From positions 1,994 through 65,993 of the forward strand of contig BEIA01000001.1 in assembly GCA_002898715.1 (NCBI GenBank): a stretch of DNA of 64,000 nt, written 5' to 3'. Positions 5,784 to 48,242 of the stretch are shown here, one piece after another. This DNA comes from a bacterium HR24. GTDB taxonomy: Bacteria; Chloroflexota; Dehalococcoidia; SM23-28-2; HRBIN24. Position numbers and translations under genes: made by a program. The stretch's first letter is position 1. Each line of letters begins with the position of its first letter. Below the pieces are notes generated by a model. It was not told where the DNA came from. It searched no databases and saw only the letters and a list, made by a program, of their open reading frames with translations.

Positions 5784-5856
5784 ACTGCGTTGGCCATCGG
5801 CGGGCGCAGGCGCTATAATGAGGGGTGCGAGCGCCAGCAAAGCGGGGGATGGAGCC

Positions 5857-6216: not shown

Positions 6217-6367
6217 CGGCATCGGGCACCACTGACGCGCTTGCGGCTCTGGAGCCTGCATCCTCGCTATCTGGACCCCCGGGGCCTGACCGCGCTATGG
6301 CGTTGCCCCTTTACAAGGGCGGGCCGGCCCGCTAGCCTACGAACTGGCCCACCGCCGGAGGTGACCC

Positions 6368-6511: not shown

Positions 6512-6999
6512 AGGACGCGATCTACCGCGTCGGCCTGGGAAGGAGCGTACCTAGAGACGGCATTCTTGTCCCTAATCACCCCATACTGCCGCTGGCCGCC
6601 GATAAGTGCCATCGCCGGTAGCCGTGCCCGCGACCGCCTGCAGGGCCTTACTTTACACTTGGTCATCAAACTGGTCATCAAAACCTGACCACCCCCTGCC
6701 AGATTTGGGCCGGCCACCCCCAACAGGTCCTGCCCAGGCCTACCGCCATATGACGTGGCGGGGGAGCCGTATCTACTGAAACAGTTGCGAAACAGATGGG
6801 CCGGCGCTGGAACAGTTGGAAACGGTCCGGCAACAAAACTCCGGAGATAAAGTCTGCATATAATGGAAACAGTGTGAAACAGATGGCCCGGCCTCAACAT
6901 GCCCGCTGGCCCTAACAGTCCCGTCGTAGGGAAGGACATGATGAGACGGAGCACGCAAGACCACCGGTTGAGGCCCAGCCCTAAGGCGCATTATGCGCA

Positions 7000-7720: not shown

Positions 7721-7936
7721 CCCCTTTAGTGCTGCGGTAGGCCTCCACTTCTCAATTCATCTCTAAGGGCGGGGGCCGAGTCAACGCTTCCTCAGGGCGC
7801 CATGGCCTCCTCCCTCCTGGCCACAGGGCCAAAGGACACGCTCCCGAGCAGCGCCGAGAGTCACTCTCCGTCCCTGCCCGAGGACAATATGTCCCGTATG
7901 CGAGGCAGGCTGGGAGGTCACAGGGCCGGCCATCGT

Positions 7937-8979: not shown

Positions 8980-9075
8980 AGAACATCTCTCTGGGGCCTC
9001 CTTTCCCTCAGGGTTTCTCTCTTTACCCCCACTGTAGGGCAGGAGGCCCCCGCCCTTATAACATCACGTAACGCG

Positions 9076-10296
9076 CTAACGCAGCGCTTCGCCCGTCTCC
9101 CGCCCCTCGCCACCCACGAGGCGGTCCAGGAGGCGCATGGCCTCCTCGCTGCCGCCCGCCAGCACGTGCGAGTAGACGTCCAGAGTGGTGGACGGCACCC
9201 GATGCCCCAGCAGCTCGGCAACCACCCGCACGCTCACGCCGTGCCCCAGCAGTAGGGATGCCACCAGGTGCCGCAGGTCGTGTACCCGCAGCCCGGCCAT
9301 GCCCAGCCTGGCCGCGGCCTGCCCCAGGTAGTACTGGACCCGGCGGGCGCTCTCCGGCGCCCCGCCCTCCCTCACGAACACATAATCACCGGGGCTGGGC
9401 TCCCGCCCCATCATCTGTCGCCACGCCGCCGCCTGCCGCTCCAGGGCCCGGCAGGCCATGTCCCCGATAGGGATGGTCCTGTCCGAGCCTGCCTTGGCGC
9501 CCCGCTCGTGCACGCCGCCGCTCGTCCGGCTCAGGGTGCGCCTCACCTGGACCAGCCGCCGCTCCAGGTCCACATCCCCCCAGCGCAGCCCCAGCGCCTC
9601 TCCCAACCGCATGCCCGTCGCCGCTATGAGCGCTATCGCCGGCCCCACCGGCGACCCCTCCACCTCCCTGAGCAGCCGCGCCAGGCCCTCCGGCGACGGC
9701 AGCTCGGGCCTGCGCGGCCGGTACACTCCGGGCCTCACCCGAGCGCACGGGTTGTCTGGGAGCAGCCCCATGCTCACTGCATCGTTCAGGGCCTGCCTCA
9801 GCACGGCGTGGATGTTCCTCACCGAACCCTGGCCCAGGCCCCTCTCCCGCGCCCGGAGCAGCACCGCCTGCACGTCCATCGGCGTCAGCTCGCGCAGACG
9901 CAGGTGCCCGATGACCGGCACCAGGTGGTGCTGCACGACGATCCGCTGCCCCTCCACCGTAGCCGGCGCAAGGCCTCCTTCCCGCATCGCCAGCCACCTC
10001 TCCAGATACGCCGCCACCGTCACCCTCCCCGTCCCCCTCGCCTGCCCCAGCCTCCCCTCGTCCCGCCTGCGCAGCAGCTCCGCCCTAACCCGCTGAGCGT
10101 CCTTGTATGTGCCGCGGACGGTCACCCGTATGTACGTCCGCTTCTTCTGGCGCGAGTCGTAGCCCATGTAGACCCGCACGGACCACGAGTTGCTTCCCCG
10201 CTTCTCGATCCCCTCGGGCACGGCCCACCCCCGACGTGCAGCGTGGGTTGTCCACCAGCGCCATCCCGTCACCGGCCCCGCATCTCCTCCTGCCAC
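9076..10296 (-). CDS. int: Tyrosine-type site-specific integrase (phage integrase family)
   Basis: 406 aa; conserved box II/catalytic region HDLRHLVASLLLGHGVSVRVVAELLGH...TLDVYSHV; AP2-like N-terminus; 3' end faces the tRNA-Arg; true start may be an internal Met. Confidence 0.9.
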   Translation of the reverse strand: MAGGDAGPVTGWRWWTTHAARRGWAVPEGIEKRGSNSWSVRVYMGYDSRQKKRTYIRVTVRGTYKDAQRVRAELLRRRDEGRLGQARGTGRVTVAAYLERWLAMREGGLAPATVEGQRIVVQHHLVPVIGHLRLRELTPMDVQAVLLRARERGLGQGSVRNIHAVLRQALNDAVSMGLLPDNPCARVRPGVYRPRRPELPSPEGLARLLREVEGSPVGPAIALIAATGMRLGEALGLRWGDVDLERRLVQVRRTLSRTSGGVHERGAKAGSDRTIPIGDMACRALERQAAAWRQMMGREPSPGDYVFVREGGAPESARRVQYYLGQAAARLGMAGLRVHDLRHLVASLLLGHGVSVRVVAELLGHRVPSTTLDVYSHVLAGGSEEAMRLLDRLVGGEGRETGEALR

Positions 10297-16225: not shown

Positions 16226-16606
16226 ATGGCGCAGGGCCGCTCGCCGGTAGGACATGGGCCGGGGCAGGACGCGTCGCGCCCTCCCCCTGGGTCATTCCTC
16301 CTCCCTGCCCTCGTCCCGTCACCCCTCGTCAGGATGGCCATGAGCATGGGTGCAAGGCCCGCCATCCGCCTTACCCTGCGTGAGACGACCAACGAGGCGA
16401 GCGACCTGGGCCTCCTCCGGTCGGTGGTGGACCTGGTGCATGCTTATCCGGGCAATGACATCCTCCTTCTGACGGTAGTCACCCTGGACGGCGAGCGCCG
16501 TCGCTTCATCTGGCGGGTCCGCGCCTGCCGTGAGCTGCGCTTCCTACTGGCCTCCCTCCTCGCCGCCTGGGCCAGGCCCAGGCCCCACGGCGGCGCGGCG
16601 GGCTAG
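16226..16606 (+). CDS. Hypothetical protein
   Basis: 126-aa ORF, no recognisable motifs; its end overlaps the stop of the convergent RM gene. Confidence 0.25.
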   Translation: MAQGRSPVGHGPGQDASRPPPGSFLLPALVPSPLVRMAMSMGARPAIRLTLRETTNEASDLGLLRSVVDLVHAYPGNDILLLTVVTLDGERRRFIWRVRACRELRFLLASLLAAWARPRPHGGAAG

Positions 16607-19320: not shown

Positions 19321-19519
19321 ACGAACTCCTGCCCTGGCCAGCAATCGATATCCTGGCAATGATAGTACCTGGACTCTCTCACCCTGACAACAGGGATAAC
19401 CTACAACTAACACCGGCCATCTGGGCCGTGGACGGCCTCCCCGTCGCGCACCGTCCCTGAATCCCCTGCCCACCCCTTTCCTGGCAGCGTTCCCTCTCGC
19501 CGTGCTATATTGACGCTTG

Positions 19520-21187
19520 ATGAGTGTGGCATCGCATCGCTCAAAAGCCTCGCCATCCCTGCCCTCCACCCCTGCCCGGCTGGGCCTGTCCGGGTTCTCG
19601 TCCTGGCGGCCCGGGCAGCGGCAGGTCGTGCAGTCCTTCCTCCAGAGCTCCCGGCCCTACGTGATGCTGGAGGCGCCCACGGGGTCGGGCAAGAGCCTCA
19701 TAGCCGTGGCCGCCGCCAGGGCCATGGGGGCGCGCCTCCTGTACGTCGTCTACACCCGCCAGCTGCAGGAGCAGCTGGCGCGGGACTTCCCGGTGGCCGT
19801 CATCATGGGCCGCAACAACTATCCCACCGCCAACCATCCCTCCCTCACAGCCGAGGCGTGCGAGCTGCGGCCCGGCAGGCGTCACTGCCCCCACTGCTGC
19901 AGCCCGCGCCTGCGCTGCAGCGGCCCGACGCCGGGCTGTGATGCCCCCTCCCGCTGCCCCTACCTCCGCGCCCGCGCCCTTGCCGAGGACGCGGATATGG
20001 TCGTCGCCAACGTGGCCTACCTGCTGCACGACCTGGAGGCGGGAGGAGGCCTCGCCACCGGCCGGCAGCTCCTGGTCATCGACGAGGCGGACGAGCTGCC
20101 GTCGGCCCTCGTGCAGCACCTGACGGTCCACATTACGGCCGATGACCTGGACCTGCTGGGGATGGGCCCGCCTCATGACCCCTCCCTGCCCGACGCCTGG
20201 CAGGGGTGGGCAAGCGAGGCCCTCCGTGCCCTCGACGCCGCCTGCGACCGCCTGTCGGAGCTGCTGGAGGCCGACGACGACCCCTTCGAGAGGGCGGGCC
20301 TTGCCCGGGACCTGCATCGCCTGGAGGCGCTGCAGCCCCGCCTCGAGCGGCTCGCGGCAGGAGGCCGTTCCCCCTGGGTGGCGGCCGTGGAGGACCCCCG
20401 CCGGGGCCCCTTCACCCTGCGGCCCCTCTATCCGGCGGCGTACGCGAGGGGGCTCCTGTGGGGCAGGACCGAGGGGCGGGTCCTGCTCATGAGCGCCACC
20501 GTCCTGGACCCCGCCGCCCTTGCCCGTGACCTGGGCCTCCCCGAGGGCTCGTGGGAGCGTCTCTCCCTCCCATCACCTATCCCGCCCGAGCGCCGGCCCG
20601 TGGTCTACATGCCCGTGGCGCCCCTTTCCCACACCAACGCCGCCGACACCTGGCCCCTGGCGGTGCGTGCCCTGGACCGCATCCTGGACCGCCACCGGGG
20701 GGAGCGGGGCATCGTCCATACCCAGAGCTACCGCCTCGCCGCCTACGTCATGTCCCACAGCCGCCACAGGCGCCGCCTGCTGGGCCACGAGGACGCGGCC
20801 GGTCGCAGCCGCGCCCTCCGCCGCCATGCCGAGAGCGAGGACGCAGTCCTCATCTCCCCCTCCATGGAGCGGGGGGTGGACTTCGCCGGCGACCGTGCCC
20901 GCTTCGCTGTGGTCCTCAAGGCCCCCTACCCCAACTTGTCGGACCCGTGGGTGGAGGCCCGCCTCCGGGCGCCCGGCGGCCAGGAGTGGTATGCCCGCGA
21001 GACGGTGCGCGCCCTGGTGCAGGCCTGCGGCCGTGTCTGCCGTGGTCCCGACGATTACGGCGTCACCTACATCCTCGATGCCGGGGTGGGCCGCCTGCTG
21101 GCGCGCCACCGGCGCCTCTTCCCCCAGTGGTTCCTCGCTGCCCTCAGGGAGGCGCCTGACGGTGCGGCACTGCCGGAGGTGATCTAG
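19520..21187 (+). CDS. DinG/Rad3-family ATP-dependent DNA helicase
   Basis: Walker A LEAPTGSGKSL, DEAD/H-like box LLVIDEADEL, Cys-rich insertion (CPHCCSPRLRC...CPY), C-terminal helicase_C_2-like region (QACGRVCRG). Confidence 0.75.
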   Translation: MSVASHRSKASPSLPSTPARLGLSGFSSWRPGQRQVVQSFLQSSRPYVMLEAPTGSGKSLIAVAAARAMGARLLYVVYTRQLQEQLARDFPVAVIMGRNNYPTANHPSLTAEACELRPGRRHCPHCCSPRLRCSGPTPGCDAPSRCPYLRARALAEDADMVVANVAYLLHDLEAGGGLATGRQLLVIDEADELPSALVQHLTVHITADDLDLLGMGPPHDPSLPDAWQGWASEALRALDAACDRLSELLEADDDPFERAGLARDLHRLEALQPRLERLAAGGRSPWVAAVEDPRRGPFTLRPLYPAAYARGLLWGRTEGRVLLMSATVLDPAALARDLGLPEGSWERLSLPSPIPPERRPVVYMPVAPLSHTNAADTWPLAVRALDRILDRHRGERGIVHTQSYRLAAYVMSHSRHRRRLLGHEDAAGRSRALRRHAESEDAVLISPSMERGVDFAGDRARFAVVLKAPYPNLSDPWVEARLRAPGGQEWYARETVRALVQACGRVCRGPDDYGVTYILDAGVGRLLARHRRLFPQWFLAALREAPDGAALPEVI

Positions 21188-21188: not shown

Positions 21189-22265
21189 ATGCCTGCCGTC
21201 CCATCGCTGCTGCTGGTGGACCCCGACGAGGCTGCTCGCGAGGAGACGCGTCGCCTCCTGTCGGTGGCCGGCCTAGCGGTGGTAGCCCATGCCGGCTACG
21301 GGCCCGAGGCCGTGCGGCTCCTGCAGGAGATGCGCCCCGATGCCGTCGTCATGGCGGCAAGGGGCATGCCGCAGCGGGTGGAGGCGATGCTGGAGCGCCT
21401 GCGCCGGGCGGCGCCGGATGTCCCCGTCCTCCTCTACGGCATGCCGTCCTTCGCGGGCCGCGCCATGGCCCTTGGCGCCCGCTCCTGCCTGCCCGACCGC
21501 CCGGGGGATGCCCTGGTGGAGGCCGTGCGCTCCGTTCTGGCGGCGGAAGGGCGCCTCCGCAGCGCCGACGGCGCCCTCCCCGCAGGCGGCGCCGTCCTCG
21601 CCGTCGTGTCGGCCCGTGGCGGCGTGGGCAAGACGACGGTGGCCGCCGGCCTTGCTGCCGCCTTCCACGCGCGGCTGGAGCTCTCGGCCGTCCTCATCGA
21701 CTGCGACCCCTACGGCGGCGCTGCCGCCCTCTTGCCCCACGACCGAGGGGCGCCGGCCGTCCTGCCGCCGTCGGCCCTCGAAGAGGCGCAGCGGCTGGCG
21801 GGCGCCCACGACTGGGTGGTAGTGGACACGGCTGCCGGCCTGCGGGAGGAGGCGCTGCGCGCCCTCGAGCTCTGCGACCTGGCCCTGCTGGTGACGACCC
21901 CGGAGGTGGGGGCCCTCAGGGAGCACGGCCGCGCCATCAGGCAGCTCGCCGACTGGGGCTTCCCGCCGGACCGCCTCCTGGCGGTCCTGGACCGCACCCA
22001 CCCCTCCCATACGGCACCGGCGGCGGAGGTTGCCCGCGCCCTGGACTGGGAGGTGGTCGCCGACATCCCCTACGACCGGCGGCTGCGACGCCTGGCGGGA
22101 GAGGGCGTGACGCCGGTGCTGGCCGCCCCCTCCTCGCCGGCCGCCCGCTCCCTCCTCCGGCTGGCCGCCCGGCTGGCGGGCGTGGGCGACCCTTCCCGCC
22201 GGCGCCGCCTGAGCCTGCCGCCCCTCCTGGCTGCCCTCCTGCGGCGCCGGGGCGGCGCTGTGTGA
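21189..22265 (+). CDS. cpaE: CpaE/TadZ-like pilus-assembly protein (receiver-like N-domain + ParA/MinD-type ATPase)
   Basis: Deviant Walker A VVSARGGVGKTTVAAGLAAA, MinD/ParA-like core, N-terminal pseudo-receiver; heads a cpaF-tadB-tadC operon. Confidence 0.7.
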   Translation: MPAVPSLLLVDPDEAAREETRRLLSVAGLAVVAHAGYGPEAVRLLQEMRPDAVVMAARGMPQRVEAMLERLRRAAPDVPVLLYGMPSFAGRAMALGARSCLPDRPGDALVEAVRSVLAAEGRLRSADGALPAGGAVLAVVSARGGVGKTTVAAGLAAAFHARLELSAVLIDCDPYGGAAALLPHDRGAPAVLPPSALEEAQRLAGAHDWVVVDTAAGLREEALRALELCDLALLVTTPEVGALREHGRAIRQLADWGFPPDRLLAVLDRTHPSHTAPAAEVARALDWEVVADIPYDRRLRRLAGEGVTPVLAAPSSPAARSLLRLAARLAGVGDPSRRRRLSLPPLLAALLRRRGGAV

Positions 22266-22323
22266 GAAAGGCGTCATATGTCACGTCTAACGCATGCTAT
22301 AATGCCTCCCGTAGCGGAGCGAG

Positions 22324-23757
22324 GTGACGCCGAGCATGCCCACAGGATGGCGCCGTCCTGAGCGGCCGCCGCCGGGCCAGCCTGCGCGCTTGCCCCCCAT
22401 GGCTCCCCCGGTGCGGGCGCCCGAGCCCTCCGGGGGCGCCGGATCGGAGCCGGCCGGGCCGCCAGCCCTCCCTCCCGACCTGGAAGAGGCGGCCCTCGCC
22501 ATATATGACGCCCTGCTGCGCGACCTGGACACGGCCCGCCTGGGCCGCCTCTCTCCCGAGGAGGCCGCCGCAGCAGCCAGGGAGGCGGCCAGGCGTGAGG
22601 TAGAGGCGCGCCACCCCGACCTCTCGTCCCCCCTCCAGGAACGGCTCATAGAGAGGGCCCTCTGGGAGGTGGTGGGGCTGGGACCCCTGGAGCCGCTCCT
22701 GCGGGACCCGACCGTCACCGAGGTGATGGTCAACTCGCCCGTCGAGGTGTTCGTGGAGCGCGGCGGCCGCCTCCTCCGCGTCCCCGTGCGCTTCCGGGAC
22801 GGGGAGCACATCATGCGCATCGTCCAGCGCATCCTCGCCCCCCTCGGCCGCCACGTGGACGAGGCGTCGCCCATGGTGGACGCCCGGCTGCCCGACGGCT
22901 CCCGCGTCAACGTCATCATCCCTCCCCTGTGCCCCCGCAGCCCGGCCGTCACTATCCGCCGCTTCCGCTCGGAGCCGTTCTCCCTGGACGACCTGGTGGG
23001 CCTCGGCAGCCTGCCTGCCCCCCTTGCCGCCTTCCTGGCAGCTGCCGTGCAGGCCAAGACGAACATCCTCATCTCCGGCGGCACGGGATCGGGCAAGACG
23101 ACGCTCCTTGCCGCCCTGGCGGGGCACATCCCCGGCGACGAGCGCGTCATCACCATCGAGGACCCCATCGAGCTCCGCCTCAAGCGGGAGCACCTCCTGC
23201 AGCTGGAGGCGCGACCGCCGGGCATCGAGGGGCGGGGGGAGGTAACACAGCGCGACCTCCTGCGCAACGCCCTGCGCATGCGCCCCGACCGCATCATCGT
23301 CGGCGAGGTGCGCGGCCCCGAGGCGTTCGACATGCTCAACGCCATGAACACCGGCCACGAGGGCTCCCTCTCCACCATCCACGCCAACTCGGTGGACGAC
23401 GCGCTGCACCGCCTGGAGAACATGGTCCTCATGGCCGGGTTCGACCTCCCCCTCAGGGCAGTGCGGGAACAGGTGGCGTCGGCCCTGCACCTGGTGGTCC
23501 AGGTGTCGCGCCTGCCCGACGGCCGCCGGCGCGTCGTCCAGGTGATGGAGGTCCTGGGCATGGAGGGCGACCAGGTGTCGCGCCAGGAGCTGTACCGCTG
23601 GCGCCAGATGGGGGTGGACCCATCGGGCCAGGTCGTAGGCCGCGACGAGGTAGCCCCCCTGCGGCCCCGCCTGGCCGACCGCCTGGAGGCGGCGGGGTTG
23701 GCCGACGCGGTGCGCTCCCTCATGGCCATGGCCGAGGAGGTGGCATCCTGGCGCTAG
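22324..23757 (+). CDS. cpaF: CpaF/TadA-family secretion ATPase (type II/IV secretion NTPase)
   Basis: Walker A ILISGGTGSGKTTLL, Asp box and His box (IIVGEVRGPEAFDMLNAMNTGHEGSLSTIHANS); T2SSE-family core. Confidence 0.85.
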   Translation: MTPSMPTGWRRPERPPPGQPARLPPMAPPVRAPEPSGGAGSEPAGPPALPPDLEEAALAIYDALLRDLDTARLGRLSPEEAAAAAREAARREVEARHPDLSSPLQERLIERALWEVVGLGPLEPLLRDPTVTEVMVNSPVEVFVERGGRLLRVPVRFRDGEHIMRIVQRILAPLGRHVDEASPMVDARLPDGSRVNVIIPPLCPRSPAVTIRRFRSEPFSLDDLVGLGSLPAPLAAFLAAAVQAKTNILISGGTGSGKTTLLAALAGHIPGDERVITIEDPIELRLKREHLLQLEARPPGIEGRGEVTQRDLLRNALRMRPDRIIVGEVRGPEAFDMLNAMNTGHEGSLSTIHANSVDDALHRLENMVLMAGFDLPLRAVREQVASALHLVVQVSRLPDGRRRVVQVMEVLGMEGDQVSRQELYRWRQMGVDPSGQVVGRDEVAPLRPRLADRLEAAGLADAVRSLMAMAEEVASWR

Positions 23758-24644
23758 CGGCAGCCTTGCTCGCCGGCATCGCCGTCTTCCTGGCCCTCCT
23801 GCCCCCGCCCGGCCCGACCCTTGCCGAGCTGGTGCGCGGCGACCTGCCGCACCGCCGGTCGCGGCCCCGGCCGGTGCCGCTGCGCCGCCGCCGAGAGGCC
23901 ATCCTGGACCGCCGGCTGGCACAGGCAGGCATCCCCATGCGGGGCGCCGCCTTCCGGGCCCTCTGCATCGGCGCCGGCGCCCTCATCGCTGCCGCCGGCG
24001 CCCTGGCCGGCCTGCCCGTCCCTGCCCTCCTGCCCCTGCCCCTGGCGACCCTGCTCCTTGGGAGCGCCATCGTCGCCATGCGTGCCGACCGTGCCTGCGG
24101 CCGCATGGAGGCTGCCCTGGTGGGAGCCCTGCCGTCCCTGGTCGCCTCGCTGCGGGCAGGGGTGGGCATCGAGCTCGCCCTGGCCGAGCTCGCCTCGCGG
24201 GCGGCACCGCCCCTGCGTGAGGAGCTGGAGGGCGTCCTCGCCCAGGTCCGCCTGGGCCTCCCCCTCCCTCAGGCGCTGGAGGAGATGGCAGCCCGCTGGC
24301 CCCTGCCGCCGGTGCGCACCCTGGCCATGGCCGTCGCCCTCCAGCGGGAGACGGGCGGCCCCCTCGCCGAGGTGCTGCAGGTGGCCGAGGAGGGGATCCG
24401 CAGCCGGCACGAGCTGCTGGGAGAGGTACGCTCCCTCACCGCCCAGCAGCGGCTCACGGCCTACCTGCTGCTGGCCCTGCCCTTCGCCGTCATGGGCGGG
24501 GTATCCCTCTTCTCGCCCGACTATGCCTCCCGCCTCTTCCTCACCACCGCCGGCCGCCTCATGCTCACCGGCGCCATCCTCCTCCAGGCGGTGGGCTACT
24601 TCTTCATGCGCTCCTTCATGAGGGTGGAGGTATACGGTGGCTAA
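23748..24644 (+). CDS. tadB: TadB-like inner-membrane platform protein (T2SS-F domain)
   Basis: C-terminal ~300 aa of ORF 22929-24644: TM helices plus the T2SSF-type cytoplasmic domain (LPLPQALEEMAARWPLPPVRTLAMAVALQRETGGPLAEVL); 5' end uncertain (no clean ATG; possible CTG/TTG start after GAGGAGG). Confidence 0.6.
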   Translation: MALAAALLAGIAVFLALLPPPGPTLAELVRGDLPHRRSRPRPVPLRRRREAILDRRLAQAGIPMRGAAFRALCIGAGALIAAAGALAGLPVPALLPLPLATLLLGSAIVAMRADRACGRMEAALVGALPSLVASLRAGVGIELALAELASRAAPPLREELEGVLAQVRLGLPLPQALEEMAARWPLPPVRTLAMAVALQRETGGPLAEVLQVAEEGIRSRHELLGEVRSLTAQQRLTAYLLLALPFAVMGGVSLFSPDYASRLFLTTAGRLMLTGAILLQAVGYFFMRSFMRVEVYGG

Positions 24645-25467
24645 CATCGCTGCCGTCCTGGCAGGGCTTGCCGTCGTCCTCCTCCTCTGGCCTCAGGAGA
24701 CGACGGCCGCGAGGGGGAGCGGCCTCCGCTCTGTGCTCGCCTCGCTGCAGGAGCGGCTGGGCAGCCTCCTCGTGCGCCTCCTCCCCTCGCGTCTCGTGAG
24801 CGCCCTCGCCTTCGACCTGGACCGCTCCGGCCTACCCCTCAACCTGCCGTCCTTCGCCCTCCTCTGGGCTCTCTCGGCCCTTGCCCTGCCGCTTCCGGCC
24901 CTCCTCATGGGGGACGGGGGCCCCCTGTCACGCCTGCTCATCGTCCTCTCCCTGGCAGCAGGCATTGCGGCGCCGCCCTACTGGCTCCGGCTGCGCATAC
25001 GCCACCGCCGGCAGGCTGCCCTGAGCGAACTGCCCCTCTTCCTGGACCTGCTGCGCGTCGCCGTCCAGGCCGGCCAGGGCATCGATGCCGCCCTCGCCCA
25101 CGTGGGCCGCCACCTCTCGGGGCCCCTGGGCGAGGAGGTGCTGCGCCTCCTCCACCGCCTCCGGCTGGGATACGACCGCGAGGAGGCGTACCTAACATTT
25201 GCCCGCCGGCTGGACCTGGAGGAGGCCCATTCCCTCATCTCGGCCATCATGCAGGCCGAGCGCACGGGAGGGGGCCTCGCCCCCGCCCTGGCCTCCCAGG
25301 CCTCCTACCTGCGGGGCCGCCTCCGGCAGCGGGCCCAGGAGGAGGCGCGCCAGGCGCCCATCAAGATGCTCCTGCCCATGGCGTTCTGTCTGCTGCCCGC
25401 GATGATGGTAGTGCTCATGGGACCTGCCGTCCTGGACCTGGTGCAGAGCTTGCGCGGGGCGAGGTGA
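24637..25467 (+). CDS. tadC: TadC-like inner-membrane platform protein (T2SS-F domain)
   Basis: GTG start overlapping the tadB stop; T2SSF-like core (LPLFLDLLRVAVQAGQGIDAALAHV ... AIMQAERTGGGLAPAL) with flanking TM helices. Confidence 0.65.
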   Translation: MANIAAVLAGLAVVLLLWPQETTAARGSGLRSVLASLQERLGSLLVRLLPSRLVSALAFDLDRSGLPLNLPSFALLWALSALALPLPALLMGDGGPLSRLLIVLSLAAGIAAPPYWLRLRIRHRRQAALSELPLFLDLLRVAVQAGQGIDAALAHVGRHLSGPLGEEVLRLLHRLRLGYDREEAYLTFARRLDLEEAHSLISAIMQAERTGGGLAPALASQASYLRGRLRQRAQEEARQAPIKMLLPMAFCLLPAMMVVLMGPAVLDLVQSLRGAR

Positions 25468-42229: not shown

Positions 42230-43462
42230 CTAACTGCTCCCGCTATTTGTCCGTGTGAAGCTACGCACCAGGTTGACGGTGCTGATGACGGGAGACCAGC
42301 CGGGCTGCCAGTAGCCCACGGCGCGGCTCAGCAGGTCAGGCACCTTCAGAGCAGCCAGCATGACGGCGATGGCAGCCACTGCCGTCACGACGAGGGGTAC
42401 TGACACCCCTGCTGCCCCCTGGACGGGGATGTAGAGTAGCCCCAGGGTCCCCCCCGACTCCTGCCAGATGATGTTCACCAGCCGGAAGCCCAGCACGAGC
42501 GTCCACACCTGGAGCGCCTGCTGAAAGACGGTAGCCGGGAAAAGGTCTGCCCACAGGCTGCTCCACTTCCGGGTCTGGGGCAGGATCCAGAGCATGAAGG
42601 CGATGGGCCCTGTCACCAGCAGCAGGTCGAGGATGACGAAGCGCATGAATAGCTGGCCGGCAAGGAATACCCCCAGTACCAGCATCACGATCCAGAAGAT
42701 GATCATGGGGACGACCCCAAGGGAGTTGAGCAGCTCCATCCCCGTGTTCTTCAGCTCGTCAGGGTGGATGACGGCCCGCACTAAGACGTTGTTGACGTCC
42801 ACGAGGAAGGTGGCAAGCCATGGGAACACGGCGATAAGGGCGATGGCCGCCGTTGCCCTAGGTAGCAGCTCTCCCACCTCATGGTAGGGGCTGGCTATGT
42901 GGCGGTTGGTCATGATGGCCACGCCGCCCCACATGAGGATGACGGCCAGGAGGCCGAGTGCTATCGCACGGGTGACCTGCATCATGTCCTGGACGAACGG
43001 GGCATGCACCGTGACCTCCTTGCCGGTGTTGCCCAGGAGGTCGTTAAAGGTAAACTCCACCAGCGCCACGAATGGCGCGAATATGAGCTTTATGAACCCC
43101 ACAAACACGTCCAGGAAGCACTTGGGCAGGTCGCCGAAGCACTCGCCCACCTTGCTGATGGTGCTGCCGATGCCGGTGAAAAAGCCCACGATGCCTCCCT
43201 CGCCCACCGGCCCCGGCGCATAGTAATAAGGAGGGCGCTGCTGGGGGGTCTCCTGGCCCGTTGGCGGCTCCGCCCCGCTCTCACCCTGGTCCTGCTGGGC
43301 CGCGGAGGGTGGGGGAGCATCGGCCCAGGCCCTAGCCGGCAGGCCCAGGCCGATGCTCCCCAGGGCAAGGAGCAACACCGCTACTGTCAGGAGTCGTGCC
43401 GCCGTCGTAGCTCGCAACATGCTCTCGCCTCGCTGCACGCCTCCCAGGGTAATGAGGCCCAT
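42230..43462 (-). CDS. Polytopic membrane protein (VirB6/TrbL-like channel component candidate)
   Basis: Signal/TM N-terminus then at least 6 hydrophobic helices (IIFWIVMLVLGVFLAGQLF, ILDLLLVTGPIAFMLWIL...); first gene of the minus-strand T4SS block; alternative start at MLRATTA (43420). Confidence 0.5.
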   Translation of the reverse strand: MGLITLGGVQRGESMLRATTAARLLTVAVLLLALGSIGLGLPARAWADAPPPSAAQQDQGESGAEPPTGQETPQQRPPYYYAPGPVGEGGIVGFFTGIGSTISKVGECFGDLPKCFLDVFVGFIKLIFAPFVALVEFTFNDLLGNTGKEVTVHAPFVQDMMQVTRAIALGLLAVILMWGGVAIMTNRHIASPYHEVGELLPRATAAIALIAVFPWLATFLVDVNNVLVRAVIHPDELKNTGMELLNSLGVVPMIIFWIVMLVLGVFLAGQLFMRFVILDLLLVTGPIAFMLWILPQTRKWSSLWADLFPATVFQQALQVWTLVLGFRLVNIIWQESGGTLGLLYIPVQGAAGVSVPLVVTAVAAIAVMLAALKVPDLLSRAVGYWQPGWSPVISTVNLVRSFTRTNSGSS

Positions 43463-43472
43463 GGTCTCCAGA

Positions 43473-43703
43473 GGGTCAAAGTGGCCTTCTTCGTGGTCTT
43501 GCCGGGGTCAAAATGGGCAGTTTCGGGGTCGTCTTAGGGTCAGATGGCGTAGTGTTGGCTAACCTAGTCGGGGTGGGCTATAGAGAGCTAGCGATACCTA
43601 TCTTGACCCTCAGGAGACCCTGGGAGGCGCCGATTTGACCCCCTGGAGACCCTGGAGAGGCGCGATTTGACCCTCTGGAGACCCTGGGGAGGCGTAGAAT
43701 GGG
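43473..43703. repeat. TTTGACCC-box array: inverted boxes (43473-43547) plus three ~35-bp tandem repeats (43603-43703); putative parC-like centromere or operator
   Basis: GGGTCAAAGTGG, GGGGTCAAAATGGG, GGGTCAGATGG (reverse orientation), then TTGACCCTCAGGAGACCCTGGGAGGCGCCGAT / TTGACCCCCTGGAGACCCTGGAGAGGCGCGAT / TTGACCCTCTGGAGACCCTGGGGAGGCGTAGA in tandem; lies downstream of parR. Confidence 0.55.
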
Positions 43704-43739
43704 GGAAGGGGGATGTCTCCACTGCTGCCGGGAGGATGC

Positions 43740-43979
43740 TTATAGGTCGTCATCCTCGCCGGCGATGTAGTCGAGCCACTCGTCCTGCCGATCGTCCTGG
43801 CACTGCTGTAGGTTCTGCCTCTCCAGCTCCGCATAGCTTGAGCGCAGCAGCTCCCGTATGAGGCTTGCTCGCTTCCCCCTCGGCGTCCTTGCCAACAGCT
43901 CCAGGAAGGTGCCATCTATGTCCGGGTCAAGGGTCACCCGCAGGCTGATGTGCACCCTCCTGGACCGTCGCCTGGGCAT
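43740..43979 (-). CDS. Ribbon-helix-helix (CopG/Arc/ParR-like) DNA-binding protein
   Basis: Start MPRRRSRRVHISLRVTLDPDIDGTFLELLARTPRGKRASLIREL is an RHH beta-strand plus helices; acidic C-terminal tail; directly downstream of the parM-like gene (ParR position). Confidence 0.55.
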   Translation of the reverse strand: MPRRRSRRVHISLRVTLDPDIDGTFLELLARTPRGKRASLIRELLRSSYAELERQNLQQCQDDRQDEWLDYIAGEDDDL

Positions 43980-45000
43980 CGGCCCCCTCCTCCTGCCTGT
44001 GCTCGAAATCGTCCTTCTGGGCCTGCTGCCTGGCAAGTAGGGCTGCACCTAGCTTCTGCAGACCGCGAGCGCCCGCTGCTATAGGATCCGTGGGGATGTG
44101 CACGTCACAGCGGACCGCCCTGCGCAGCTGGTCCAGTAGGCCCCTTTCCCGCAGCAGAGCCACGCCGCCGCCCGCCATGATGGTGAGGCTAGGACGTATG
44201 CCTGCCCAGCGTCTCCGGATGAAGCTGGCCACCTCGCTTGCCCATCTCGTGACTATCTCTTCACCCACAGTCAGCGTTCCTTCAGTGTATCGTCGCAGCA
44301 GCTCGTGGTAAGGCAGGTCCTGGTCGCCAGCTGCCTGTTCCAGCAGGAGCCGTACTCCCAGATCTGCACCCGCCATCATTCCCAAGTGGGCCTGCCCTCC
44401 TTCTATGCCCAGCAAATCGACAGTATTGAAGCCTATGTCGACAATGCCCACCAATGCTTTACGTGCTCCCGTAAGCAAGGAGCCGTCCGGCGTCACTGCC
44501 CAGTCCGCCCATACTCCCAGGGGCTGTGCCCTTATCCAGACTCGCTTGATGTCCAGGGTCATGGGGATGCCATCCACTTCGACGGTATGACAGCCTAGCA
44601 GGCGCTGTCGCGCTGCCCTTGTCACGTTCTCACTTCGGCCGCTCCCCTCGAGAACTGACACCGGTAGCCCTACCATGAGGCCGACCTGTCCCCCTTGGCC
44701 ACCAAGCGCCTTTGCCAGTGCACCGAGCATAAGTGCAATCGTCGGTGAGGTGACGAAGCGCATATCGTCGATGCTCTCGTAGGCGATGCCCCGCAGGGGG
44801 GCACCGCTTCCCACTGCGTACTCCTGGCCCTGCATCCGCACGATGGTGGCCTTGGCAACTCGCAGGCCGCTGGCAGCGAGTCCCACCCTACGCGGCGCGG
44901 CTACCAGGCTAGGCATGACTACGACGGACCTCTCAGTCGCCACCTTCACGTTGCCGAACCCGGGATCGAGTCCTACTGCCTGGAGCTTCACTGTCCTCAC
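43927..45000 (-). CDS. parM: ParM/StbA-family actin-like segregation ATPase
   Basis: N-terminal phosphate-1 motif VGLDPGFGNVKVA, later GIVDIGFNTVD (phosphate-2/adenosine motif), ~350 aa ASKHA fold; flanked by repeat arrays. Confidence 0.75.
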   Translation of the reverse strand: MRTVKLQAVGLDPGFGNVKVATERSVVVMPSLVAAPRRVGLAASGLRVAKATIVRMQGQEYAVGSGAPLRGIAYESIDDMRFVTSPTIALMLGALAKALGGQGGQVGLMVGLPVSVLEGSGRSENVTRAARQRLLGCHTVEVDGIPMTLDIKRVWIRAQPLGVWADWAVTPDGSLLTGARKALVGIVDIGFNTVDLLGIEGGQAHLGMMAGADLGVRLLLEQAAGDQDLPYHELLRRYTEGTLTVGEEIVTRWASEVASFIRRRWAGIRPSLTIMAGGGVALLRERGLLDQLRRAVRCDVHIPTDPIAAGARGLQKLGAALLARQQAQKDDFEHRQEEGADAQATVQEGAHQPAGDP

Positions 45001-45185
45001 CCCGTTTCATGTTACACGATTCGACCTCCTACGAAATATGTTACACGTTTGGCTCTGCTGCGGGAGACGCTACATGCAAGACATGACTCTCATCATCGCA
45101 CCATGCTCCCCCTGGTGCCCATTGCCTTCCTCACCAACTGCGCTCGGGAGGCCCCTACCGTTACCGCCCATTACGTCGTGCAGGC

Positions 45186-45465
45186 TACTGACTACTCGGT
45201 TTGACCCTGAAGGCGTAGATGTGACAGAGGAGAAAGAGGGAGATGGTAGGCGCGTGAGCAGATTGTACCACCTGCACTTTGGCTCCTGGCATGCCACCGG
45301 TTCTAGTCTTCTGTAGATGACTCCCAGATAGGACCTAGGGCGTGCCGCTTTATGGCTACCGACTACTCGTTTTGACCCTGAAGGCATAGCCGTGACACGT
45401 AAGCAAATGGGAGATAGCATGAGCAAGGGGAGATTGTACCATTGCCACTTGCCGTGTGCTGCCCT
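45186..45465. repeat. Two ~110-bp imperfect direct repeats upstream of parM (TTTGACCCTGAAGGC-containing; putative parC/promoter)
   Basis: Copy 1 ~45186-45300 and copy 2 ~45356-45465 share GACTACTCG(G/T)TTTGACCCTGAAGGC(G/A)TAG...GTGACA...GGGAGAT...GAGATTGTACCA...CTTG; a third TTTTGACCCTGAAATGACCCTGACATGAC box lies at ~45555. Confidence 0.6.
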
Positions 45466-46177
45466 CATACCCTGTCCGTAGCGTTAAGCTCATGCCAAAT
45501 AGGGGCCTCGGCCCTGCTCGTCCGGCCGCCTTAATTAAGTGAGCGCCCAATGTTTTGACCCTGAAATGACCCTGACATGACTATACCTCCCCCCAAAATC
45601 CCCCCGTCATTGCACCCGCGTGCTGCCATGACCACACCCGTGCCCATCATCACCTGTGCACCCGTTGGGGTATCGTCTTCCATGCTTTCCCTCTCGCCCA
45701 CATCGCCACCGGATCTCCTTCACCCGGCTACCGGTTCTCTCCTTCTCTCACCCACCGTCCCCTTCCACCGGTATGCCGTGTTCTTTGGGCTCGCGCATGC
45801 GATGTCGCAGCGGTCTGTGTCCCCATGTGCACCGTCGCGTGCCACAAGGCATGCGGGGGCAGGGACCGGCGGGTCCCAGCGCTTACCCACCACATCTCTC
45901 TGCGGGGGCATGCAGGTGCCCGATTGGGAGCGCATACAGACTCCCCTCACCTGGAGTACCCGAGGGGGTGCTATGGGAGGATAGGTAGGCGCGATCTGCT
46001 GTGAGGTCTGCCCGTTTTCAGATAGACAGGTGGCTATGGGCCGTGCTACCCAGGGGGCTTCCGTCCCATACCGCGGGACCTGTCCCCGTACAGGCCACGG
46101 CGGGACGACCTGCCGGGTGCGGGAGACGCCTCTGTTTGAGCCACCTGATGACTCGGGCCACTCGCCTGTGGGGACCT

Positions 46178-46606
46178 TCAGGCATGGGGGCCTTCCTGGC
46201 AGGCGTTCCCCATGAGGGCGCGGGCGCACCTGCACCGGTGAGCGCCGTCATCGGCGCCTGCCGGCGCGTGCAGGGCAAGCCGATGCCCCGGCGCGGCGCC
46301 TGCCCTAGCCAGCGTCCCGGCTGGCAGCTCCAGGGCGATGCGGGCATGGGGGCCTCCCATCACCATGCGGAACGGCGGGACGGCACTTGCCGTCTTGAGC
46401 ACCAGCCCGGTGCGGTCCAGGAAGGCGACATCGAGGGGGAAGCGCATGAAGAAGGTATGGATGGCAGAGCAGGGGGCTAGAAGGAGGCCCTCGCCCGGGT
46501 CCAGGCATCTGCGGCCCAGGAGGCCCACGAGCCTCCTCCACCAGGTGCAGGCACAGGCAAGGCGGTAGGCAAGGATGCTGCCGGTCGTGAGGTCTACCAC
46601 CTGCAT
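46178..46606 (-). CDS. DUF192-family protein
   Basis: MQVVDLTTGSILAYRLACACTWWRRLVGLLGRRCLDPGEGLLLAPCSAIHTFFMRFPLDVAFLDRTGLVL...ALELPAGT follows the DUF192/COG1430 pattern. Confidence 0.5.
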   Translation of the reverse strand: MQVVDLTTGSILAYRLACACTWWRRLVGLLGRRCLDPGEGLLLAPCSAIHTFFMRFPLDVAFLDRTGLVLKTASAVPPFRMVMGGPHARIALELPAGTLARAGAAPGHRLALHAPAGADDGAHRCRCARALMGNACQEGPHA

Positions 46607-47391
46607 CCTATAACCATGATAGGACGGGTGGATAGGGGCATCCCCGCCGTGTGCCTGCCCTCCCTTCGGGGAGCATCTCATCTCGTCGACCGTGCGCCGT
46701 GGCTGCCGGTGCACCGCCGGGGTGGTGGGGGCAGCCTCAGGGGTGGCGGATACACAGTCGGGTATGCCGGCGCTGCCGTCGGGAGCCTCGCTTCTGGGAG
46801 GGGCCTACCTAAGCGAGGGGCTGCAGCACAAATTGACCCCAAGCCGACCCTGGAGGGGTGGACGAGGGATAGGTGAGAATGTGAGATCATGGTTGGAGCG
46901 GTGATATCCTCGGGCGATGGATGCCTTGGAGTGCCTTAAGGTGACAGTATCCGCCCCTGAAGGTGTTGACAACCCTAGAGGGAGGCGCTAGCGTTAGCGG
47001 TTGCGAAGAGTGGTGTGATAGCCCCCAAGAGGGGGCACCTCGCCTCATGGGCGAGGCTCCGCCACCCCCGGCGGCGGCGTGAAGCCTATCCCCCTACAAG
47101 GGGCTCTGGGCTGAAGTGGCCGGGGAAGCGGACTGGGCCCTGTCGTGATGGGCCTTGGTCCGCACAGGAGGTAGCCTCCAGGAAGCGGGAGGAGGCACCT
47201 CCAGAGTGCCGTCGGCGCTCCGGTTGGGGACCGACGGCTGCGGGCAGTAGGAAAAAGCCCCCTCAGCAGGGGGGCCAACCCCAGGATTGAACGGGTTGGC
47301 GTCCCTGCCGAGGGGGTTATTGTCGTTTGACAGCCCCCTCGTCGGGTAGGGTGGCAGCATCCTGCCCCATCAGGGGGCTGTCGACCCCCAG

Positions 47392-47435
47392 GCCCCAGGA
47401 GGATGGCCCCACCTCCTGGGGCTTTTGTATTTGGG
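47392..47435 (+). terminator. Intrinsic terminator-like hairpin
   Basis: Perfect 10-bp stem CCCCAGGAGG / CCTCCTGGGG with 9-nt loop, followed by CTTTTGTATTTGGGG; a near-identical copy lies at 48832. Confidence 0.5.
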
Positions 47436-47495
47436 GCCCTCCGTCGGAGCTGGCCCGGCCGGCGGTGCAAAACCAAAAGGGCTGGAGGTGAACGT

Positions 47496-48242
47496 ATGCG
47501 ACGGTGGGTGTTGTTCTTCCTCCTGGGGGGCATCCCGGGGCTCCTCCTGGCACTCCTGCTGGGGGCTGCTCCCATGCCTCCCATTTTGCGGCGCCTCCTC
47601 CTGGTGGGGGGCGCCGGCCTGCTGGGGGCCCTCTTCCTGGGGGCCATAGCAGGCAACTTGGGGCTCCGGGCGACGGGGCCCGAGGACCCCACTCCCGCAT
47701 TCGCGGCTGCGGGCGCGGTGGCCGTGGCGGGCGCAGCCGTCACCCTGGCAGTCGTGGCCGCCATGGCCGTCCGGGCTGCCCGCCGGCCCGGACGGCCCGC
47801 TCAGGCCGCCCCGACCACCCCGACCGCCGCGGCCGCCACAGGGAGCGAGGGCACCCAGGGCAGCCCCGCTCCCGCCGTGGCCGTGCACGGCGCCGCCCCG
47901 GAGGAGGCGGCCCGGCTGGAGGCCCTGCTGCGGCCGGTCTCGTCCCTCCTGGGCCGGCCCCTGGTGGTGGTCATCACGCCAGGGAGGCCCCGCGGGTGGC
48001 GGCTGGAGGGGGGCGTCCTCCTCCAGGTCCCCCGCCCCCAGGAGCGGCTCCTGCTAGCCGCCCTGGAGGATGCCCTCCTGGGCAGCGGCAGCCCAGGCGC
48101 CCCTCGACGGGAGCGGCCGTCGCGGCGTGCCCCTGAGGCCGACGTGGCCACAGCATCCCGCCGGCCGCGGCCCGAGGACATCGCCGCCGCTGTGGGAGGC
48201 GCCACACCGGAGGGGAATGGTCCAATGAATGGAGGTGTATAA
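47496..48242 (+). CDS. Membrane protein, paralog A (Ala/Gly-rich TM helices + Pro/Arg-rich C-terminus)
   Basis: MRRWVLFFLLGGIPGLLLALLLGA... ; about 85% identical at the protein level to the product of 59106-59822; start chosen at the ATG preceded by GGAGGTGAACGT. Confidence 0.55.
   Translation: MRRWVLFFLLGGIPGLLLALLLGAAPMPPILRRLLLVGGAGLLGALFLGAIAGNLGLRATGPEDPTPAFAAAGAVAVAGAAVTLAVVAAMAVRAARRPGRPAQAAPTTPTAAAATGSEGTQGSPAPAVAVHGAAPEEAARLEALLRPVSSLLGRPLVVVITPGRPRGWRLEGGVLLQVPRPQERLLLAALEDALLGSGSPGAPRRERPSRRAPEADVATASRRPRPEDIAAAVGGATPEGNGPMNGGV

What the first reader, a model, noticed from the sequence alone, without database searches (positions are those of the whole stretch)
43473..45580. ParM/ParR-like partition cassette bracketed by two different TTTGACCC-box repeat arrays
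An actin-type ParM (GLDPGFGNVKVA) is followed by an RHH ParR-like protein. Upstream of parM are two ~110-bp direct repeats, each carrying TTTGACCCTGAAGGC and a conserved GAGATTGTACCA segment. Downstream of parR are three 35-bp tandem repeats plus inverted GGGTCAAA boxes. All share the TTTGACCC core in both orientations. This looks like a centromere (parC) split on both sides of the operon, or a centromere plus an operator. The parM stop and the best parR start overlap by about 50 nt, so the parR start may be mis-called.
Basis: seen in the sequence. Interest (0 to 1): 0.6.

Follow-up and report, generated by a model that had tools for sequence, protein, structure and literature searches.

The report
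Actin-type partition module heading a conjugation operon
A ParM-like actin and its small ParR-like DNA-binding partner sit inside an integrated conjugative element, and their repeated GGGTC binding boxes lie both upstream of the pair and, as a six-unit array, in front of the DNA-transfer (type IV secretion) genes, so one protein may tie inheritance to transfer.

Summary
All genes are on the minus strand. An actin-like ATPase (43927-44991) has a ParM-class fold. It is followed by a 79-aa ribbon-helix-helix protein (43740-43979) with weak but consistent ParR affinity.

The shared box is a unit of two GGGTC half-sites 11 bp apart. Exact units occur 6 times in 64 kb against 0.63 expected, all within 43526-46850.

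Downstream of the RHH gene lie 3+3 units at a 32-bp period. They form two inverted arms around a roughly 60-bp core, directly before a TrbL/VirB6-like gene that opens a type IV secretion operon.

The two upstream "110-bp repeats" are a recent 171-bp tandem duplication of a promoter-like module carrying one box; a 99%-identical relative has a single copy. Further units lie at 45555-45582 and 46830-46858.

The layout DUF192 gene, long spacer, actin, RHH, array, T4SS recurs in at least 9 metagenomic lineages. Some lineages carry different boxes, each lineage using its own box type at both places. The 53-nt gene overlap is conserved, so it is not a mis-call.

The window is a chromosome carrying an ICE-like element.

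Best reading: a type II partition module whose adaptor also represses the transfer genes. No binding or function has been tested. I rate it a new variant of a known kind, of moderate interest.

The parts
46830..46858 (-). Single full box unit (CCAGGGTC-GGCTTG-GGGTCAATT on the minus strand), about 120 nt upstream of the DUF192 gene and preceded by CATTCT
46178..46714 (-). DUF192 gene, the conserved upstream neighbour of the module
   Evidence: PF02643 at 2.5e-17. The same neighbour is present in L007, L008 and L014-L016.
45530..45590 (-). The most conserved upstream element: a -10-like TATAGT (45580-45585), the double box TCAGGGTCATTTCAGGGTCAAAAC (45555-45582) and the motif ATTGGGCGCTCACTTA (45536-45551)
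   Evidence: TRF finds an 11-bp period with 2.4 copies. The element is nearly invariant between the window, L014-16 and L002, whose ALP is only 66% identical.
45354..45450 (-). Copy A of the duplicated module: TGGTACAAT (extended -10-like, 45433-45441) followed by a single box TTCAGGGTCAAAAC (45372-45378)
45183..45279 (-). Copy B of the same module (TGGTACAAT at 45262-45270, box at 45201-45207). It arose by a 171-bp tandem duplication that is absent from L015 and L002.
43927..44991 (-). Actin-like ATPase (ParM class, ALP_N family), 354 aa, with intact phosphate-1, phosphate-2 and adenosine motifs
43740..43979 (-). 79-aa ribbon-helix-helix protein, the ParR-like adaptor candidate. It has a basic N-terminal arm, a beta-strand, a PRGxRA turn and a conserved acidic/hydrophobic C-terminal tail (DEWLDYIAGEDDDL). 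It overlaps the ALP gene by 53 nt.
43694..43715 (-). Conserved block CATCCCCCTTCCCCCATTCTAC just after the RHH stop codon. It is a -10-like element (TATTAT or TATAAT in relatives) reading into the array.
   Evidence: 14 consecutive invariant columns across 7 loci; relatives. Its promoter function is inferred.
43603..43698 (.). Arm A of the array: three 32-bp units, each with two GACCC half-sites 11 bp apart (units start at 43603, 43635, 43667)
   Evidence: the half-sites are the invariant columns in relatives
43544..43602 (.). Core of about 60 bp between the two arms. It holds GCGCTAGCT, which is TAGAAT or TGCTAAAAT (-10-like) in L007, L043 and L044.
   Evidence: a promoter here is inferred
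43463..43543 (.). Arm B of the array: three inverted units at a 32-bp period (43463, 43495, 43527). The last unit supplies a TTGACC that could serve as a -35, placed 18 nt before CATTAC.
42230..43420 (-). TrbL/VirB6-like gene, first gene of the T4SS operon. The likely start is ATG 43420 after GAGG. The longer ORF start at 43462 lies inside a box and is not conserved in L007.
   Evidence: PF19597 at 2e-8; start-codon comparison

Best explanation
This is a type II (ParM/ParR/parC-like) partition module carried by an integrative conjugative element.

The RHH protein would bind as dimers to GGGTC half-sites spaced 11 bp apart, one dimer-of-dimers per unit. The twelve half-sites between its own gene and trbL form two inverted arms of three units each. 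On these arms it would build a large nucleoprotein complex that serves as the centromere. That complex would capture the ends of filaments of the actin-like ATPase through the conserved C-terminal tail of the RHH protein. This would push copies of the excised, plasmid-like element apart.

The array is the only non-coding DNA in front of the type IV secretion operon, and its units abut or contain promoter-like elements. The same complex would therefore repress the transfer genes.

Single or double units follow promoter-like elements upstream of the ALP gene and of the DUF192 gene. These would be operators for autoregulation.

Shown here: the protein folds and families, the repeat anatomy and its statistics, the synteny, and the box conservation and box swapping in relatives.

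Inferred only: binding of the RHH protein to the boxes, filament capture, partition, repression, and the promoter positions.
For: ALP is ParM-class:
- PF17989 scores 8e-18.
- The family profile hits CorM at 5e-18, Dh-cParM1, pCBH ParM, pSK41 ParM, Alp12 and Ta0583.
- The AF2 model has pLDDT 84, and its top 27 PDB matches are all segregation actins.
- The ATPase motifs D9/G11/G13/K16, D185/G187/T190 and GGG274-276 are conserved.

The small protein is ParR-like:
- The AF2 model shows an extended segment followed by two helices.
- A broadened profile hits the pSK41 ParR structure 2q2k (E 0.007) and the NikR RHH domain (E 0.002).
- Four of 31 remote relatives hit PF10784, best 8e-8. PF10784 recognises R1 ParR at 2.7e-30.
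- hhalign against R1 ParR gives E 0.002 over 36 columns.
- The C-terminal tail with W68 is conserved. This resembles the ParM-binding C-terminal helix of ParR and CorR (bioRxiv 10.1101/2025.06.27.661541).

The boxes:
- Enrichment and phasing are significant.
- In 7 loci with 55-99% identical ALPs, the half-sites are the invariant columns while the spacers drift.
- Other lineages carry different 11-bp-phased half-sites in the same places: ACGTTCA/ATCATCA in L009, L011 and L045, and CCCTCA in L003. Within each lineage the same type occurs upstream of the ALP gene and downstream of the RHH gene.
- The RHH beta-strand falls into two types that follow this split: xISLRxT with GGGTC boxes, and RLLLRLT with the other boxes.
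- A more distant pair, L013, has a classical CCGTCAC iteron cluster upstream of its ALP gene, 13 copies against 1.5 expected.

Precedents:
- R1 parC consists of two sets of five 11-bp iterons around a 39-bp promoter core and is also the operator (PMC2241845).
- pSK41 parC still works when moved downstream of parR (PMC4911067).
- SXT/R391 ICEs use SrpMRC for partition (PMC4489591).

ICE context.
Against: - No binding, filament or stability data exist for this system.
- Known parC sites lie upstream of parM as contiguous direct repeats (PMC9426499). Here the large array is downstream, its arms are inverted, and its units are separated by 21 bp.
- L003 and L009 have almost the same RHH beta-strand but different boxes (CCCTCA versus CGTTCA). 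Box specificity is therefore not explained by the strand alone, or another protein reads the boxes.
- The consensus promoter scan found no minus-strand sigma-70-like site in the window region, so the promoter claims are weak.
- The element is seen integrated in a chromosome, where a partition function is not needed.
Confidence: 0.55

Rival explanations
1. The module is a conjugation regulator or accessory module rather than a partition system. The RHH protein would be a TraM/TraY/TrwA-like repressor and relaxosome accessory factor. It would bind phased sites at the head of the transfer operon, possibly next to oriT. The actin-like protein would serve transfer, for example by positioning the element or the T4SS.
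For: In every close relative with enough sequence, the pair is fixed at the head of the T4SS operon. Boxes sit beside promoter-like elements of three transcription units. A strongly conserved inverted repeat lies about 100 nt beyond the array, inside trbL. A conserved purine-rich tract lies upstream. R1 ParM and ParR are reported to stimulate relaxosome activity and transfer (PMC4949242). Type I partition proteins can activate transfer genes and bind oriT (PMC12421886, abstract).
Against: Sequence and profile links point to ParR proteins (pSK41 ParR, PF10784), not to TraY or TraM families. The relaxase gene lies 13 kb away, and no nic-like sequence was identified. More distant ALP-RHH pairs, such as L013, occur without a T4SS and with a classical upstream iteron cluster. 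This reading is also compatible with a dual function rather than excluding partition.
Confidence: 0.25
2. The 3+3 array is a structural DNA element. It could be a long hairpin or cruciform used as an origin of transfer, a single-strand origin or a replication origin. Alternatively, its boxes could be iterons for a Rep or relaxase protein rather than for the RHH protein.
For: The single strand folds into a long imperfect hairpin at -53.6 kcal/mol, z = -5.3. The element encodes other DNA-binding proteins with winged-helix domains, namely the Replic_Relax protein and an AAA_25 protein.
Against: In the alignment of 7 loci, predicted pairs are confined to the box half-sites. The inter-unit spacers are not complementary, and the covariation term is unfavourable at +2.65. 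The same boxes occur singly or doubly at three other places beside promoter-like elements. That pattern fits operators better than an origin.
Confidence: 0.1
3. The repeats are non-functional remnants of duplication or chance clustering.
For: The upstream 97-nt repeats are indeed a recent duplication.
Against: Enrichment statistics argue against chance. Half-sites are conserved across lineages while the spacers vary. Boxes have been swapped in parallel at both locations in other lineages.
Confidence: 0.02

Closest known systems
Plasmid R1 ParM/ParR/parC (type II partition)
   Same: Both have an actin-fold ATPase followed by a small RHH adaptor. The binding sites are phased at 11 bp. The sites form two sets flanking a core of tens of bp. 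The same sites act as centromere and operator (PMC2241845). There is a weak profile link between the adaptor here and R1 ParR / PF10784.
   Different: R1 parC is upstream of parM, with ten contiguous direct 11-bp iterons. Here the large array is downstream of the adaptor gene, its arms are inverted, its units are pairs of half-sites every 32 bp, and the operon it precedes is a T4SS operon. The ALP is not matched by the R1-type HMM PF06406.
Staphylococcal pSK41 ParM/ParR/parC
   Same: It is among the closest solved relatives of both proteins: pSK41 ParM 3js6 scores Foldseek 6e-18, and ParR 2q2k matches the PRGxxA..IRE.LR helix region. An engineered parC placed downstream of parR remains functional (PMC4911067).
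   Different: The natural pSK41 parC is four contiguous 20-bp repeats upstream of parM, and it has no link to transfer genes. Sequence identity to the ALP here is only about 16%.
SrpMRC of SXT/R391 integrative conjugative elements
   Same: It is a ParM-like protein plus a small DNA-binding protein carried by an ICE. Its binding repeats occur in direct and inverted orientation in an intergenic region next to transfer functions (oriT). It stabilises the excised element (PMC4489591).
   Different: The host is a gammaproteobacterium. srpC is upstream of srpM, has four 13-bp repeats, and is expressed together with int. No sequence relationship to the proteins here was tested.
Omega (RHH) of pSM19035/inc18 plasmids (from my own knowledge)
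   Same: One RHH protein binds arrays of short repeats in direct and inverted orientation at several promoters. It is both a global repressor and the centromere-binding protein.
   Different: Its motor partner is a Walker-type ParA (delta), not an actin. Its repeats are contiguous 7-bp heptads.
CorM/CorR of Anabaena
   Same: CorM is the best sequence match in the PDB to the ALP family profile, at 5e-18. CorR is an RHH protein whose C-terminal helix binds the actin.
   Different: CorR has lost DNA binding and attaches to membranes. Here the adaptor keeps a basic arm and is surrounded by phased repeats.

Membership tests
Type II (ParMRC) partition systems | Actin-fold ATPase of the ParM class | tested here: met
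   PF17989 at 8e-18. PDB profile hits to CorM and several ParMs. Top Foldseek hits are all ParM, Alp or AlfA proteins. Nucleotide-binding motifs are conserved.
Type II (ParMRC) partition systems | Small dimeric RHH adaptor encoded directly downstream of the ATPase gene | tested here: met
Type II (ParMRC) partition systems | Adaptor C-terminus binds the ATPase filament end | not testable with these tools
   Only a conserved acidic/hydrophobic tail (W68, LD, DD) is seen. No complex prediction was available.
Type II (ParMRC) partition systems | Cis-acting centromere of iterated repeats near the operon, bound by the adaptor | tested here: inconclusive
   Iterated, helically phased repeats are present and conserved. 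They lie downstream in two inverted arms, and binding was not testable.
Type II (ParMRC) partition systems | Stabilises a low-copy replicon | not testable with these tools
   This needs a plasmid-loss assay.
Pfam PF06406 (StbA/ParM of R1 type) | Match to the family HMM | tested here: not met
   The family is not listed at E <= 1. The protein belongs to PF17989 (ALP_N) instead.
Integrative and conjugative element (ICE) | Integrase next to a tRNA gene, plus relaxase, coupling protein, VirB4 ATPase and mating-pore genes, flanked by chromosomal genes | tested here: met
   hrcA and dnaK. tRNA-Arg at 5709-5784. Tyrosine integrase at 9076-10296. Relaxase, T4CP, VirB4, TrbL, SLT-M23 and pilin.
Integrative and conjugative element (ICE) | Direct repeats (attL/attR) marking the ends | tested here: inconclusive
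   Only 13-nt chance-level matches to the tRNA 3' end were found. The right end is not defined.
Relaxosome accessory RHH proteins (TraY/TraM/TrwA type) | RHH protein binding repeated sites adjacent to a nic site (oriT) | not tested
   No oriT or nic site could be identified. The relaxase gene is 13 kb away.

The most novel reading that the evidence does not exclude
The adaptor-array complex is a single switch that couples vertical and horizontal inheritance of an ICE. The centromere is built into the control region of the type IV secretion operon. Assembly of the ParR-like complex then silences or times the transfer genes. The same complex hands the excised element to actin-like filaments, for segregation or for delivery to the transfer apparatus. 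The conserved hairpin just inside trbL and the purine-rich tract upstream would be parts of an adjacent oriT or origin.
Probability: 0.2. Interest if true: 0.7.

Novelty: new variant of a known kind. Interest (0 to 1): 0.45.

Why it matters
ICEs were long thought to need no plasmid-like maintenance, and SXT/R391 was the first counter-example. This is a second, unrelated and uncultured lineage of ICE-like elements. Its actin-type partition pair is fixed at the head of the transfer operon, and the putative centromere is also the transfer-gene control region.

If the binding is confirmed, it would give a compact and easily testable system of about 3.5 kb. It could show how mobile elements balance staying in a lineage against moving to a new host. 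It would also widen the known architectures of type II centromeres to include downstream position, inverted arms and spaced pairs of half-sites.

The protein family is rare. It has no relative in 72,556 sequenced plasmids. In one genome per species of 185,579 species, the closest relatives are about 30% identical.

Tried and rejected
- Plasmid searches: blastn and tblastn of the region and of the ALP against PLSDB plasmids found nothing.
- Phage search: one 31%-identical hit only.
- Genome-contig scan with the single ALP sequence found nothing. With the alignment it found only relatives of about 24-34% identity, mostly in Chloroflexota MAGs, none linked to homologous T4SS genes.
- Pfam on the RHH protein and its close family: no significant hit. 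One Pfam call spent on guessed remote members was uninformative.
- Foldseek of the RHH monomer model: nothing.
- Rfam on 42500-47500: only sub-threshold miRNA-like hits, caused by the hairpin at 43306-43361.
- Search for att repeats of the tRNA-Arg 3' end: chance-level 13-mers only.
- Sigma-70 consensus scan: no minus-strand promoter in the window region, and only partial support in relatives. All promoter statements are therefore marked as inferred.
- Hairpin or cruciform reading of the array: rejected as the main explanation, because pairing is limited to the boxes.
- The array core (TCTATAGCCCA) resembles the R388 nic region as I recall it. This was dropped because the bases are not conserved in L001, L014 and L002.
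- The 132-aa and 171-aa ORFs in the ALP-DUF192 spacer were judged non-coding. Their composition is typical of spurious GC-rich ORFs, and the spacer carries indels between near-identical relatives.
- My first register for the trbL hairpin was wrong by two columns. It was corrected.
Full report
WHAT IS THERE

All relevant genes are on the minus strand. A 354-aa protein is encoded at 43927-44991, starting at a GTG after GGTGAGGA. The longest ORF reaches 45000. A 79-aa protein follows at 43740-43979. Its ATG lies 53 nt before the stop codon of the first gene.

The next gene downstream is a TrbL/VirB6-like membrane protein (42230-43420). After it come an SLT+M23 cell-wall hydrolase, a T4SS pilin, a VirB4-like ATPase, a coupling protein and a Replic_Relax-type relaxase. 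Upstream, after about 1.2 kb without a credible gene, lies a DUF192 gene at 46178-46714.

The left end of the window carries hrcA-grpE-dnaK-dnaJ, a tRNA-Arg (5709-5784), an IS110 transposase and a tyrosine integrase at 9076-10296. The right part carries a DnaG-like primase and then MoxR/VWA genes and a CCA-adding enzyme. The window is therefore a chromosome carrying an ICE-like element. The cassette sits at the head of that element's transfer operon. I could not define the ends of the element.

THE REPEATS

TTGACCC occurs 13 times in the window against 4.75 expected. Nine of these lie in 43473-45561. The real unit is two GGGTC half-sites 11 bp apart. Exact GGGTC-N6-GGGTC occurs 6 times against 0.63 expected, always between 43526 and 46850.

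Six units lie between the small gene and trbL, at a 32-bp period. Three are in one orientation (43603, 43635, 43667). Three are in the other (43463, 43495, 43527). A core of about 60 bp separates the two sets. The 243-bp array holds 10 exact pentamers against 0.65 expected, spaced 11/21/11/21/11. All sites therefore face roughly the same side of the helix.

There are four sites upstream:
- a double box with an 11-bp period at 45555-45582;
- a single box at 45372, inside one of the two 97-nt direct repeats;
- a single box at 45201, inside the other 97-nt repeat;
- a full unit at 46830-46858, in front of the DUF192 gene.

THE PROTEINS

The large protein matches Pfam ALP_N (8e-18) but not PF06406. 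A profile of its family matches CorM (5e-18), Dh-cParM1, pCBH ParM, pSK41 ParM, Alp12 and Ta0583 in the PDB. Its AlphaFold model has pLDDT 84. The best 27 PDB matches of that model are all DNA-segregation actins and their closest relatives: Dh-cParM1, pSK41 ParM, Ta0583, CorM, and the R1, Bt and Clostridium ParMs, Alp7A, Alp12 and AlfA. MreB and Hsp70 rank below them. The nucleotide-binding motifs are conserved.

The small protein has a basic N-terminal arm, an alternating hydrophobic strand (VHISLRVTL), a helix, a PRGKRA turn and a second helix. It also has a conserved acidic/hydrophobic tail. It has no Pfam hit itself and no Foldseek hit. Four lines of weaker evidence still point to an RHH/ParR protein:
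- A profile broadened with remote relatives from a 1.84-billion-protein search hits the NikR RHH domain and the pSK41 ParR structure 2q2k.
- Four of 31 remote relatives hit PF10784, with a best E-value of 8e-8.
- hhalign against R1 ParR aligns strand, helix, PxGxR and helix at E 0.002.

The RHH/ParR-like assignment is therefore supported, though only by several weak lines of evidence.

RELATIVES

The ALP has 18 clusters of relatives in a 5.8-billion-protein index. I fetched loci for most of them.

In every close relative (55-99% identity) with enough flanking sequence, the gene order is the same. The ALP gene is followed by a small gene, usually overlapping it by 47-62 nt. In L043 there is no overlap because the ALP is shorter. 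L003-L006 insert a 467-aa gene at this point. Then come an intergenic array, TrbL, SLT/M23, pilin, PrgI, TraC-like and VirB4 genes. A DUF192 gene lies about 1 kb upstream.

The overlap encodes the conserved arm and strand of the small protein, so its start is not mis-called.

Seven loci have ALPs that are 55-99% identical to the window's: the window, L014-16, L001, L002 and L007. In an alignment of these seven arrays, the invariant columns are the GGGTC/GACCC half-sites plus one block, CATCCCCCTTCCCCxATTxTA, just after the small gene. The spacers drift. An alignment that includes L043 and L044 shows the same pattern.

Other lineages have different half-sites in the same places, still phased at 11 bp:
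- ACGTTCA, ATGGTCA and ATCATCA in L009, L011 and L045;
- CCCTCA in L003.

In each of these lineages the same box type occurs both upstream of the ALP gene and downstream of the small gene, and almost nowhere else in the locus.

The strand of the small protein falls into two types that follow this split. The type xISLRxT goes with GGGTC boxes. The type RLLLRLT goes with the other boxes. However, the split coincides with two clades. L003 and L009 also share a strand but not a box, so the link is not clean.

A more distant pair, L013 (41% identical ALP), has no T4SS. It carries a classical cluster of CCGTCAC iterons upstream of its ALP gene.

THE UPSTREAM REPEATS

The two 97-nt repeats are the result of a 171-bp tandem duplication. 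L015, whose ALP is 99% identical, has a single copy, as does L002.

The duplicated module holds TGGTACAAT, an extended -10-like sequence on the gene strand. A single box follows it about 65 nt later.

The best-conserved upstream element is 45530-45590: TATAGT, the double box, then ATTGGGCGCTCACTTA. It is nearly identical in L002 even though the ALP proteins are only 66% identical.

In relatives, boxes typically follow -10-like hexamers directly. Perfect TATAAT hexamers occur in L009 and L011. The simple consensus scan gave no minus-strand promoter in the window and only partial support in relatives. Promoter positions are therefore inference.

MECHANISM

The most economical reading is a ParMRC-type module whose adaptor binds phased half-sites.

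The 3+3 array resembles R1 parC. R1 parC has two sets of five 11-bp iterons, each iteron binding one ParR dimer, around a 39-bp promoter core. It is both centromere and operator (PMC2241845). Here the array precedes the T4SS operon rather than parMR. The smaller upstream sites would provide autoregulation.

Centromere position is known to be flexible. pSK41 parC moved downstream of parR still supports filament dynamics and plasmid stability (PMC4911067). An ICE-borne type II system, SrpMRC of SXT/R391, stabilises the excised element, and its centromere lies next to oriT (PMC4489591).

The main rival is that the pair serves conjugation control rather than partition. R1 ParM and ParR are reported to stimulate transfer (PMC4949242). 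The two readings are compatible with each other.

A hairpin or origin reading of the array is less likely. The strand does fold well, at z = -5.3. But the pairs are confined to the boxes and show no supporting covariation.

VERDICT

This is a new variant of a known kind of system, in a rare, uncultured lineage. There is no relative in PLSDB. Species-representative genomes hold only relatives of about 30% identity, mostly from Chloroflexota MAGs.

Interest is moderate. Everything beyond the anatomy, the homology and the comparative conservation still needs experiments.

Noticed in passing
window 43306-43361 (minus strand, inside the 5' part of the trbL-like gene): Inverted repeat GGGGAGCATCGGCC...GGCCGATGCTCCCC: a 14-bp stem, extended to 20 pairs in the window, around a variable loop. 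The arms are invariant at nucleotide level in 8 lineages whose proteins have diverged. L003 carries one compensatory CG-to-UA change, synonymous on one side and Ala-to-Thr on the other. 87% of cells are paired against at most 52% when the register is slid. It could be an RNA regulatory hairpin, a processing site or part of an oriT.
   Followed up: partly
window about 45590-45820 (minus strand): Purine-rich tract, 70-75% A+G in 60-nt bins against a background of 0.52 +/- 0.05. It lies directly upstream of the double box. The same position is purine-rich (up to 82%) in L002, L007, L011, L043 and L015, although the sequence is not conserved. Unexplained; it could be an unwinding element, origin or oriT.
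   Followed up: partly
window 45010-45046: Two TGTAACA(T) motifs 29 nt apart, just upstream of the ALP start. They are conserved as TGTnACA in L002, L007 and L043 and are unrelated to the GGGTC boxes. They may be a proximal promoter or a site for a second regulator.
   Followed up: no
window 45536-45551 and the array core 43575-43590: The motif GGGCGCTCACTTA sits next to the upstream double box. A related GCGCTAGCT sits in the core of the array. Both recur in L002, L007, L043 and L044, where the core version reads as a -10-like TAGAAT or TGCTAAAAT.
   Followed up: partly
window about 45930-46100: About 150 nt are present in the window but absent from the near-identical loci L014-L016. The ALP-DUF192 spacer is the most variable part of the locus, at 80-90% identity with indels.
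   Followed up: no
window 43918-43935 (inside the RHH coding sequence, at the ALP stop): An additional GGGTCAAGGGTCAC pair of half-sites only 7 nt apart. The spacing differs from that of the units, so this is possibly chance.
   Followed up: no
window 5709-10296: tRNA-Arg (CCT), an IS110-family transposase (7937-8773) and a tyrosine integrase (9076-10296). This is the probable left end of the ICE-like element. No att repeat was found.
   Followed up: partly
window 21189-25467: A receiver-domain ParA/CpaE-like ATPase (21189-22265) and a T2SSF/TadB-like protein (24637-25467). These are Tad-pilus-like genes inside the element. A type II restriction-methylase fusion lies at 16603-19569.
   Followed up: no
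L013:590-730: A distant ALP-RHH pair (41% and 29% identity) without a T4SS. It has a classical cluster of CCGTCAC iterons in both orientations upstream of its ALP gene, 13 copies in the locus against 1.5 expected. This shows the ancestral parC-upstream layout in the wider family.
   Followed up: partly
L003:7227-8630 (also in L004-L006): One lineage has an extra 467-aa gene with no Pfam match, inserted between the RHH gene and the array. Its array uses CCTCAAAA-type 11-bp iterons.
   Followed up: no
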